Assembly (NCBI RefSeq): GCF_001186125.1
Contig: NW_014040057.1
Location: 1 to 32,116, forward strand
From: Sphaeroforma arctica JP610
Taxonomy: Eukaryota
Length of the DNA: 32,116 nt
Reading direction: 5' to 3'
Under the pieces are notes generated by a model that saw only the letters and a list, made by a program, of their open reading frames with translations, was not told where the DNA came from and did not search any database. The first letter of the stretch is position 1, and the number at the start of each line of letters is the position of its first letter. Shown one piece after another: positions 19,566 to 20,747 of this stretch. Both the position numbers and the translations under genes were made by a program.

Positions 19566-20747
19566 TTATGTTGTCTGCGGTGCATATCCAGAGTGAACAG
19601 GTTGTGATGCTGCAACATGTATGGCAGGTTGTTCCCGCGTTGAGTCAAAGTATGGAGACTTCACTACCATCTTTGCTACTAATGTGACGCCCCATGGGGT
19701 CTTGCCACACGCTTTCGTGCATTCCTTGAGGAACGTATTGTTTGTGTTTTCCACTATCATCGGGGTTTCTTCTAGTAAAGACAAGAACGTTGGAAACCAC
19801 GTTGCATTAGGGTGGTATGGTACACATACCGTGATGCTGGTTGCCTCTTCAATGACTTTGTCAAGGACCTCAGGTATGAGTTCCCATGACGGGTTCGCCC
19901 ATGCATTCACTTCCTGCGCCCACTTCCATAGGACCGCATTCTGCTCTTTGATATAGTATTTATCTGTGTGTGCATTGTGTGCTGATGCAAACAGATCTAC
20001 TGTGAATTTCCCAAACCGTCTTTCAGCTTCTTTGTAGAATCTGGAGTGTAACATCCAGTCTATAGCTGATATGGTTATGGGCATGCTAGTTTCCAAGGTG
20101 GTGTACTCTTGGCTGTGAGCTGTTGTTTTCACGTCTTGTAATACCACTGACGTTTTAGTATTAAACGTGTATTCGTGTAGACGCGACAACACATCTACCA
20201 TCTGGTTGTCCTTACCTGGGACATGTATGCTAGAGAAGTGATGGTGGAATATTTTTGCTATCCATTTGGCTAGCATTGTGTGTAACGTCTGTTGGCTGTT
20301 CATTTGCGCGATCTCTTTATGATCTGACCACAGTGTTATGTACCTTCCATTGATGTATTCGGGAAAATGTTCCATGCTGTATACCAGTGCTAGGAGCTCT
20401 TTTGTGTTTGTGTCATAGCGTTGCTGTGCTGGATTCGGGCCATTGGGAAAATAGCGAATATCTCTTCTGACTCCATCGATGACTTGAAATAAACATCCTG
20501 TTGTACCATTTTCACTAGCATCGCTCATGATTTGAAACGGTGCCCCATCAACAGGGAATGCTATTGTCGCCGAACGCGAGATGGCTTCTTTGAGTTCTTT
20601 CCGCTTCTTTATTAGTTCCGGTATCCATAACATGGATATGTTCTGGTTCATTTTTCCTTTCATTAGGTTCCGGAAGTGTTTAGTTGTGTGGGCAAAGTTG
20701 GGGACATGATCGCGCATATAGTTCGCGAGTCCCACCGCTTTGTGCAT
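19566..20747 (-). pseudogene. Open 393-codon Pol segment of element C: RT connection, RNase H and Dam-like N6-adenine MTase (MTase about 19670-20060)
   Basis: RNase H motifs followed by DWML...FGKFTVDLFASAHNAHTDKYY...W...AWANPSW...VLDKV...TVCVPYHPNATWF. NPSW is at 19884-19895. Confidence 0.9.

What the first reader, a model, noticed from the sequence alone, without database searches (positions are those of the whole stretch)
19670..20060. Ty3/Gypsy Pol carries a phage-Dam-like DNA N6-adenine methyltransferase between RNase H and integrase
Seen: in one open frame, RNase H is followed by ~130 aa reading W.L...F......FG.FTVDLFAS..NA....YY......W......WANPSW..I..VL.K........VCVP......WF, and the integrase HH-CC region follows in frame after a single TAA. 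Established: the DLFAS SAM-binding motif followed by an NPP(Y/W/F) catalytic motif is the signature of the phage-type Dam family (Pfam PF05869). An MTase of this kind after RNase H is known in DIRS tyrosine-recombinase retrotransposons, whereas canonical Ty3/Gypsy Pol is PR-RT-RH-IN without it. Inference: this is a DDE-integrase LTR retrotransposon lineage with its own 6mA (or 4mC) writer, which could mark its cDNA to protect it or to mimic the 6mA of active chromatin known in several unicellular eukaryotes. This copy has NPSW rather than NPPW and is probably decayed. Novelty cannot be confirmed without a database and literature search.
Basis: partly seen in the sequence, partly recalled or inferred. 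Interest (0 to 1): 0.92.

Follow-up and report, generated by a model that had tools for sequence, protein, structure and literature searches.

The report
Decayed methyltransferase-carrying gypsy retrotransposon
A broken jumping gene in a single-celled relative of animals carries an adenine-methyltransferase-like domain between its RNase H and integrase, a real arrangement that a May 2026 preprint already described in this lineage and that likely helps intact copies mark their new DNA as active.

Summary
The frame 19566-20771(-) encodes RNase H, then a PF05869 Dam domain above Pfam's cut-off, one TAA, and an integrase zinc finger. Intact 1288-aa relatives (75-77% identical over the domain) read protease-RT-RNase H-Dam-integrase and keep NPPW; the best PDB sequence match of the one searched (P0122) is Ty3 Gag-Pol. 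A second, divergent element with LTRs and the same domain lies at 5743-12956. The host is an ichthyosporean, and the methyltransferase and RT trees group the element with Abeoforma (and, for the methyltransferase, Sphaeroforma arctica) proteins. This is the 'Ichthyosporean DAM-LTR lineage' of bioRxiv 10.64898/2026.05.21.726589 (May 2026), so the architecture is not new. This scan also noted it before in another genome (Rozella). The copy is a pseudogene (NPSW, stops, frameshifts, integrase deletion). Two small additions: (1) this clade ends in a divergent chromodomain that scores below Pfam's cut-off, whereas the preprint says the lineage lacks one; (2) the closest solved structure is the RNA cap methyltransferase PCIF1, although phage Dam models are closer overall. 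With the preprint's negative E. coli assay, this points to a single-stranded or RNA:DNA hybrid substrate. Activity is unproven.

The parts
20786..20974 (-). Element B: 3' end of reverse transcriptase, broken (2 stops, frameshift to the next part); the 5' part is cut off at an assembly gap (N 20977-20996)
   Evidence: tblastn of intact relative P0122 aa 376-438, 79%; PF00078 E 0.0019; N run
20181..20771 (-). Element B: RT connection and RNase H
   Evidence: PF17917 E 1.9e-19, PF17919 E 3.7e-17; 108/150 identical to P0122 over RNase H
19671..20078 (-). Element B: Dam-like (PF05869) N6-adenine methyltransferase domain; DLFA at 19986-19997, NPSW at 19884-19895
   Evidence: PF05869 E 1.5e-12 to 9e-12; fold; 106/138 identical to P0122; second Pro of motif IV is P in 28 of 29 aligned rows and S only here
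19566..19568 (-). In-frame TAA in the linker between methyltransferase and integrase; intact relatives are open here
19401..19559 (-). Element B: integrase zinc-binding (H2C2) domain, second Cys replaced
   Evidence: PF17921 E 1.1e-6 above cut-off
19022..19402 (-). Element B: DDE integrase core remnant; about 55 codons matching P0122 aa 892-946 (including the first catalytic Asp) are missing, with frameshifts and stops
   Evidence: tblastn segments
18477..18614 (-). Element B: divergent chromodomain at the integrase C-terminus
   Evidence: PF00385 E 0.0019, below cut-off; 10 of 12 PDB sequence hits are chromodomain proteins; model folded from clade members only: all 42 listed Foldseek rows are chromodomain structures, best E 6.6e-3, rmsd 1.4, none at E<=0.001
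5743..5963 (+). Element A: 5' LTR (TG...CA)
   Evidence: 89.7% to 12726-12958 by blastn; left flank ends TTAG
10114..11520 (+). Element A: RT and RNase H, frameshifted
   Evidence: PF00078, PF17917 E 3.5e-28; tblastn
11514..11930 (+). Element A: Dam-like methyltransferase remnant, DVFA 11586-11597, NPP followed by a stop 11691-11702
   Evidence: PF05869 E 1.8e-6, 28.2 bits read with X; 53/137 identical to P0122; motif places
12100..12438 (+). Element A: truncated integrase remnant
   Evidence: tblastn P0122 aa 846-960
12726..12956 (+). Element A: 3' LTR (TG...CA), preceded by a G-run polypurine tract and followed by TTAG (4-bp target-site duplication)

Best explanation
This is a dead copy of an ichthyosporean Ty3/Gypsy retrotransposon whose Pol carries a phage-Dam-like adenine-methyltransferase domain between RNase H and integrase, and in intact copies that domain likely methylates adenines on the element's own single-stranded or RNA:DNA-hybrid cDNA. 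Shown here: domain order PR-RT-RH-MTase-IN-chromodomain in intact relatives, conservation of the SAM-binding Asp and the NPP(W/F/Y) motif, the amino-MTase fold, and shared descent of RT and MTase in this clade. Inferred: the domain is packaged with RT in the particle and acts during reverse transcription. After integration the host's AMT1 would maintain ApT 6mA and keep the new copy in transcription-permissive chromatin (the preprint's model). The chromodomain would help steer integration. Confidence in identity is about 0.95; the number below is for the mechanism.
For: Pfam order in the window and in P0121/P0122. Best PDB sequence match of P0122 is Ty3 Gag-Pol, E 7e-60. Of 26 relatives that I picked for scanning, 21 hit PF05869, always after RNase H, and 17 of these 21 also show an integrase domain after it. 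Motif I Asp and Ala are invariant in 29 of 29 rows; motif IV reads N in 24, P in 27, P in 28 of 29. The MTase is 80% identical between P0121 and P0122 against 43% in the next linker, and 77% between the window and P0122 against 31%. The MTase clade (15 rows, 99/97) and RT/RH clade (14 rows, SH 99) have matching membership, including Abeoforma P0134. The preprint reports more 6mA and more transcription on DAM-LTRs than on other LTRs in S. arctica and A. whisleri and proposes the hybrid/AMT1 model. [quoted passage not shown]
Against: No activity has been shown: eukaryotic DAMs gave no 6mA in dam- E. coli (preprint). Iyer et al. judged the DIRS1 MTase domains likely inactive (PMC4738411 passage). 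The 6mA enrichment is a correlation and could follow from transcription. In other DAM-LTR clades 5 of 29 rows lack the catalytic Asn (F or H), so the domain can persist with a degraded motif. No dN/dS was run, since no DNA of the intact relatives was held. The window's two copies cannot work themselves (stops, frameshifts, NPSW or NPP-stop).
Confidence: 0.45

Rival explanations
1. The domain is a catalytically weak or dead pseudo-enzyme kept as a nucleic-acid- or protein-binding module of Pol, for example holding the template RNA or mimicking PCIF1; the 6mA on these elements comes from host AMT1 because they are transcribed.
For: Iyer et al. propose this for DIRS1; negative E. coli test; degraded motif IV in 5 of 29 rows of related clades.
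Against: In the 15-row clade holding the window, NPP(W/F) is kept in all 13 rows other than the two broken window copies, across RT families that diverge widely.
Confidence: 0.27
2. The domain is a PCIF1-like RNA adenosine-N6 methyltransferase acting on the element's genomic RNA (cap-proximal or internal A) or its primer, and does not act on DNA.
For: PCIF1/CAPAM ranks first among solved structures in both searches (Foldseek E 8.5e-5; Z 10.3), followed by the KsgA/Dim1/Erm RNA m6A enzymes. Iyer et al. place DIRS MTases in the PCIF1 clade. It would explain the negative genomic-DNA assay.
Against: Phage DNA N6-MTase models match far better (E 3e-10, TM 0.71-0.77) than viral PCIF1-like models (E 4e-4). 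No PF12237 hit appeared in the Pfam scans. No solved structure matched the domain by sequence, so PCIF1 may rank first only because no closer family member is solved. The lead of PCIF1 over DIMT1 is under 1 Z (tied). The preprint reports DNA 6mA enrichment.
Confidence: 0.18
3. The enzyme marks cDNA to shield it from a host nuclease or sensor before integration (a self mark, as in phages), without a lasting chromatin effect.
For: Phage relatives. DIRS elements keep the domain in hosts that lack AMT1 and 6mA (preprint).
Against: No such host nuclease was identified here. Integrated copies show 6mA and higher expression, and DAM-LTRs co-occur with AMT1 in 9 of 13 species.
Confidence: 0.08
4. A DIRS element or a stray MTase piece is nested by chance in a gypsy copy, or the join is an assembly chimera.
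For: The copy is broken and borders an assembly gap.
Against: One open frame joins RH and MTase. Two intact 1288-aa proteins from different sources show the same order. A second divergent element with LTRs and TSD has it too.
Confidence: 0.01

Closest known systems
Ichthyosporean DAM-LTR lineage (Fernandez-Moreno et al., bioRxiv 10.64898/2026.05.21.726589; Pirum gemmata, Abeoforma whisleri, Sphaeroforma arctica). Main text read whole; supplements closed
   Same: Ty3/Gypsy Pol with a PF05869-type DAM and NPP motif; ichthyosporean host; tree clade shared with Abeoforma P0134/P0132 and S. arctica SARC_09892 (P0125)
   Different: The preprint says this lineage lacks chromodomains; here a divergent chromodomain is found in the window, its intact relatives and the Abeoforma protein P0134. 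The preprint's main text does not mention PCIF1.
DIRS1-type tyrosine-recombinase retrotransposons with an MTase after RNase H (Iyer et al. 2016, PMC4738411, passages seen)
   Same: Same kind of MTase domain in the same place after RT-RH
   Different: The intact relatives here have aspartyl protease, H2C2 and DDE integrase, and element A has direct TG...CA LTRs and a TSD; DIRS use a tyrosine recombinase instead (preprint)
Chlorophyta DAM-chromovirus-like elements (same preprint)
   Same: RT-RH-DAM-IN-chromodomain order
   Different: Elements with canonical chromodomains fall outside the window's MTase and RT clades; their hosts were not named in my look-ups
Phage DNA N6-adenine MTases of PF05869
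   Same: Pfam match above cut-off; best predicted-structure matches, TM 0.66-0.77
   Different: Free-standing phage enzymes, 16-22% identity; here the domain is a part of Pol with no shown activity
PCIF1/CAPAM cap adenosine-N6 methyltransferase
   Same: Best solved-structure match (Z 10.3, rmsd 3.5, 142 aa)
   Different: 13-16% identity, no WW or helical domain; acts on capped mRNA

Membership tests
Ty3/Gypsy LTR retrotransposon | Pol order PR-RT-RH-IN with DDE integrase | tested here: met
   P0121/P0122; RT-RH-IN remnants in the window
Ty3/Gypsy LTR retrotransposon | RT/RH most like Ty3 | tested here: met
   Ty3 Gag-Pol E 7e-60, ahead of caulimovirus and spumavirus RTs; no PF05380 hit in P0121/P0122
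Ty3/Gypsy LTR retrotransposon | Direct LTRs TG...CA, PPT, short TSD | tested here: met
   Met for element A. For element B no LTR pair can be tested, because the 5' half ends at an assembly gap
Ty3/Gypsy LTR retrotransposon | RT tree separates it from DIRS | tested here: inconclusive
   The RT/RH tree (114 rows, FastTree) held no DIRS reference; DIRS is excluded by architecture only
DIRS retrotransposon | Tyrosine recombinase in place of protease and DDE integrase | tested here: not met
   Protease, H2C2 and rve domains present in intact relatives
Ichthyosporean DAM-LTR lineage | DAM domain in a Ty3/Gypsy Pol | tested here: met
Ichthyosporean DAM-LTR lineage | Ichthyosporean host | tested here: met
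   Neighbouring HSF gene: 87% Creolimax, 67% Ichthyophonus, 66% Amoebidium, then fungi at lower scores
Ichthyosporean DAM-LTR lineage | DAM groups with Abeoforma/Sphaeroforma DAMs | tested here: met
   100/99 with S. arctica P0125; 99/97 clade with Abeoforma P0134 and P0132. The preprint's own sequence set was not available
Ichthyosporean DAM-LTR lineage | Lacks a chromodomain (as worded in the preprint) | tested here: not met
   Divergent chromodomain in 8 of 10 clade rows tested, above the best of 300 shuffles (6.2 bits); three of the eight only narrowly (6.5-8.3 bits); Abeoforma P0134 26.5 bits; fold. I read this as a detection limit in the description, since it affects Abeoforma too
Ichthyosporean DAM-LTR lineage | Insertions enriched in 6mA and transcribed | not testable with these tools
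   No modification data; RNA labels of runs were guesses
PF05869 N6-adenine MTases | Profile score above cut-off; motif I Asp; motif IV NPP-aromatic | tested here: met
   45.4 to 56.2 bits against 28.1; NPPW in intact relatives; this copy has NPSW
PF05869 N6-adenine MTases | Methylates adenine in DNA | not testable with these tools
   The preprint's E. coli test was negative
PCIF1/CAPAM | Sequence-profile membership, WW domain, cap recognition | tested here: inconclusive
   Fold match only; no Pfam PCIF1 hit listed

The most novel reading that the evidence does not exclude
Ichthyosporean DAM-LTRs are unrecognised chromodomain-bearing elements whose Pol-borne methyltransferase is an active, PCIF1-like enzyme for single-stranded or hybrid nucleic acid. 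It would write N6-methyladenine on the retro-transcript inside the particle, so that a new insertion arrives already marked as active chromatin; this would explain why dsDNA tests in E. coli fail.
Probability: 0.3. Interest if true: 0.6.

Novelty: already known. Interest (0 to 1): 0.27.

Why it matters
A retrotransposon that brings its own writer of an activating mark would reverse the usual picture of DNA methylation as a silencer of transposons. That idea is already in print as a preprint covering this lineage, so this locus mainly confirms it. What it adds is practical: intact natural ORFs with a full NPPW motif (P0121, P0122) for enzyme tests, a structural reason to test single-stranded and hybrid substrates, and a correction that the lineage does carry a divergent chromodomain.

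Tried and rejected
No whole genome is held, so copy number and dN/dS were not computed. A PDB sequence search with the MTase found 0 matches at E<=10. The last homologue search (alignment A1, longer proteins) covered only 3335-5000 aa proteins and gave 2 unrelated plant polyproteins, so no DIRS reference was obtained. The ESM Atlas gave no answer twice. Expression: no RNA holder listed; the RNA labels of X14 and X15 are guesses, so expression is untested. Which letters other genomic copies of this family read at the stop and at motif IV remains open. No PCIF1 Pfam family was listed in any scan. Foldseek on the chromodomain model gave no row at E<=0.001, so that call rests on several weak lines that agree. 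No LTR partner for element B appeared in the self-comparison, and no tRNA-type primer site was evident behind the 5' LTR of element A. Earlier-findings search by sequence found nothing. Literature: 5 searches; the only paper seen on DAM in non-DIRS LTR elements was the 2026 preprint; its supplements were closed and may show the chromodomain or list this family. Repbase and GyDB could not be searched. Rejected: chance motif match, nested DIRS, assembly chimera.

Full report
Observation. The minus-strand frame 19566-20771 encodes the RT connection region, RNase H (PF17917 E 1.9e-19) and a PF05869 Dam domain (E 9e-12, 45.4 bits, cut-off 28.1). Read with X at stops, the frame continues into an integrase H2C2 domain (E 1.1e-6, above cut-off). 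AlphaFold2 on a 28-row alignment gave pLDDT 90. The model matches phage N6-adenine MTase models best (E 3e-10 to 1e-5, TM 0.66-0.77). Among solved structures it matches PCIF1/CAPAM (Foldseek E 8.5e-5; Z 10.3, rmsd 3.5 over 142 aa), then KsgA/Dim1/Erm, T4 Dam (Z 8.0) and E. coli Dam (Z 7.6).

The element. Two intact 1288-aa proteins, 75% and 77% identical over the domain, were the 2 hits among 67 long candidates. They read protease, RT, RNase H, Dam, H2C2, rve in one frame, with DLFA and NPPW. The best PDB sequence match of P0122 is Ty3 Gag-Pol (E 7e-60). Mapped on P0122, the window copy (element B) has stops in RT, a frameshift before RNase H, the linker stop, a deletion of about 55 codons that removes the first integrase Asp, and more stops downstream; its 5' half ends at an N gap. 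It is a pseudogene. A second element (A, plus strand) has LTRs at 5743-5963 and 12726-12956 (TG...CA, about 90% alike, TTAG on both flanks, G-run before the 3' LTR) and the same domain at 11514-11930 (PF05869 E 1.8e-6). It is only 35% identical to B over RNase H and MTase, so it belongs to a different family. In 4 of 4 public runs laid on 18300-20960, all 30 bins were covered by many variant contigs (run X1: 2139 laid, 1297 of them under 95% alike). This fits a multicopy family, though X1 may be the source sample and depth is no copy number.

Conservation. Of the 150 best representative hits I scanned 24, plus no others from that list except 2 short fragments, 26 in all, mostly chosen because their match reached into the MTase region. 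21 of 26 hit PF05869, always behind RNase H, and 17 of those 21 had an integrase domain behind it. In a 29-row MTase alignment (near-duplicate cluster members and short matches dropped, from 41 hits among 172 sequences), motif I Asp and Ala are invariant. Motif IV has N in 24, P in 27 and P in 28 rows; the one Ser is this copy. The domain is 80% identical between P0121 and P0122 against 43% in the following linker and 94% in RT. No dN/dS was possible.

Host and lineage. The intact HSF gene at 29069-30541 is closest to Creolimax (87%), Ichthyophonus (67%) and Amoebidium (66%), then fungi. The MTase tree joins B with P0121, P0122 and the S. arctica protein SARC_09892 (100/99), inside a 15-row clade (99/97) that also holds A and two Abeoforma proteins. 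A FastTree of RT/RNase H (114 of 154 sequences; those with short matches dropped) recovers a matching 14-row clade (SH 99); other MTase-bearing elements are scattered among MTase-less gypsy rows. This fits one capture in this clade and separate captures or losses elsewhere. The tree held no DIRS reference, so DIRS is excluded by architecture.

What is known. The preprint bioRxiv 10.64898/2026.05.21.726589 (main text read whole; supplements closed) claims the first identification of DAM domains in non-DIRS LTR retrotransposons and defines an ichthyosporean lineage in Pirum, Abeoforma and S. arctica. It reports more 6mA and more transcription on DAM-LTRs than on other LTRs, co-occurrence with AMT1 in 9 of 13 species, and no 6mA gain when the enzymes were expressed in dam- E. 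coli. It proposes methylation of RNA-DNA intermediates with maintenance by host AMT1. Iyer et al. (PMC4738411, passages) place DIRS MTases with PCIF1 and consider them likely inactive. PCIF1 prefers ssRNA > hybrid > ssDNA > dsDNA (PMC9178792, abstract only). Notes of this scan record the same architecture in another genome (Rozella) and cite the same preprint; I had found it before that look-up.

What this locus adds. First, a chromodomain. The preprint says the ichthyosporean lineage lacks one. The window's 18477-18614 scores on PF00385 below cut-off (E 0.0019), and 10 of its 12 PDB sequence hits are chromodomain proteins. A profile of canonical chromodomains from other clades scores 8 of 10 clade rows above the best of 300 shuffles, among them Abeoforma P0134 at 26.5 bits; three pass only narrowly, and P0124 and the truncated P0131 do not score. 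A model folded from clade members alone matches only chromodomain structures in the 42 rows listed, none at E<=0.001. The region is 91% identical between P0121 and P0122 against 44% in the tail. Compared with the canonical row P0158, the window's family lacks the first and third aromatic-cage positions; that such domains may not read methyl-lysine in the usual way is recalled, not tested. Second, the PCIF1 likeness, which the preprint's main text does not mention, gives a structural reason to test single-stranded and hybrid substrates. It is limited by the closer phage matches and by a Z lead under 1 over DIMT1.

Mechanism. Most likely (0.45), intact elements carry the domain into the particle as part of Pol and methylate adenine on nascent cDNA, and host AMT1 then keeps the new insertion in active chromatin. 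The anatomy and conservation are shown; every catalytic and chromatin step is inferred. Rivals: a binding-only pseudo-enzyme (0.27), an RNA methyltransferase (0.18), protection of cDNA (0.08), artefact (0.01).

Verdict. Real, correctly read, already described for this lineage in a recent preprint; the copy is dead. Interest 0.27.

Noticed in passing
window 13100-15117 (+): PIF1-like helicase remnant (PF05970 E 1.2e-10 at 14190-14876) in a broken region; likely a decayed Helitron-type element (inferred).
   Followed up: no
window 15925-16872 (+): Third RT remnant, cut off before RNase H, sister to element A in the RT tree (SH 97).
   Followed up: partly
window 16968-17665 (-) and 3805-4083 (+): Integrase and RT remnants 47-63% identical to P0124, another MTase-bearing gypsy family; the window holds pieces of at least three related families. 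The first has about 150-bp tandem duplications.
   Followed up: partly
window 6147-6599 and 12549-12645: Inside element A: a 226-nt tandem duplication (97%) in a leader ORF and three 34-nt repeats before the polypurine tract; ORFs at 8128-10017 are gag-like by position but have no Pfam match.
   Followed up: no
window 29069-30541 (+) and 22722-24200 (+): Host genes: intronless HSF (PF00447) and an intron-split Derlin (PF04511).
   Followed up: partly
window 1840-2192: 71-nt inverted repeat arms, 86% complementary, 211 nt apart, with further short inverted repeats at 1055-2976; possibly MITE-like.
   Followed up: no
proteins P0145, P0149, P0157, P0163, P0139: Other DAM-LTR clades have F or H in place of the catalytic Asn, so degenerate versions of the domain persist in long open Pol frames.
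   Followed up: no
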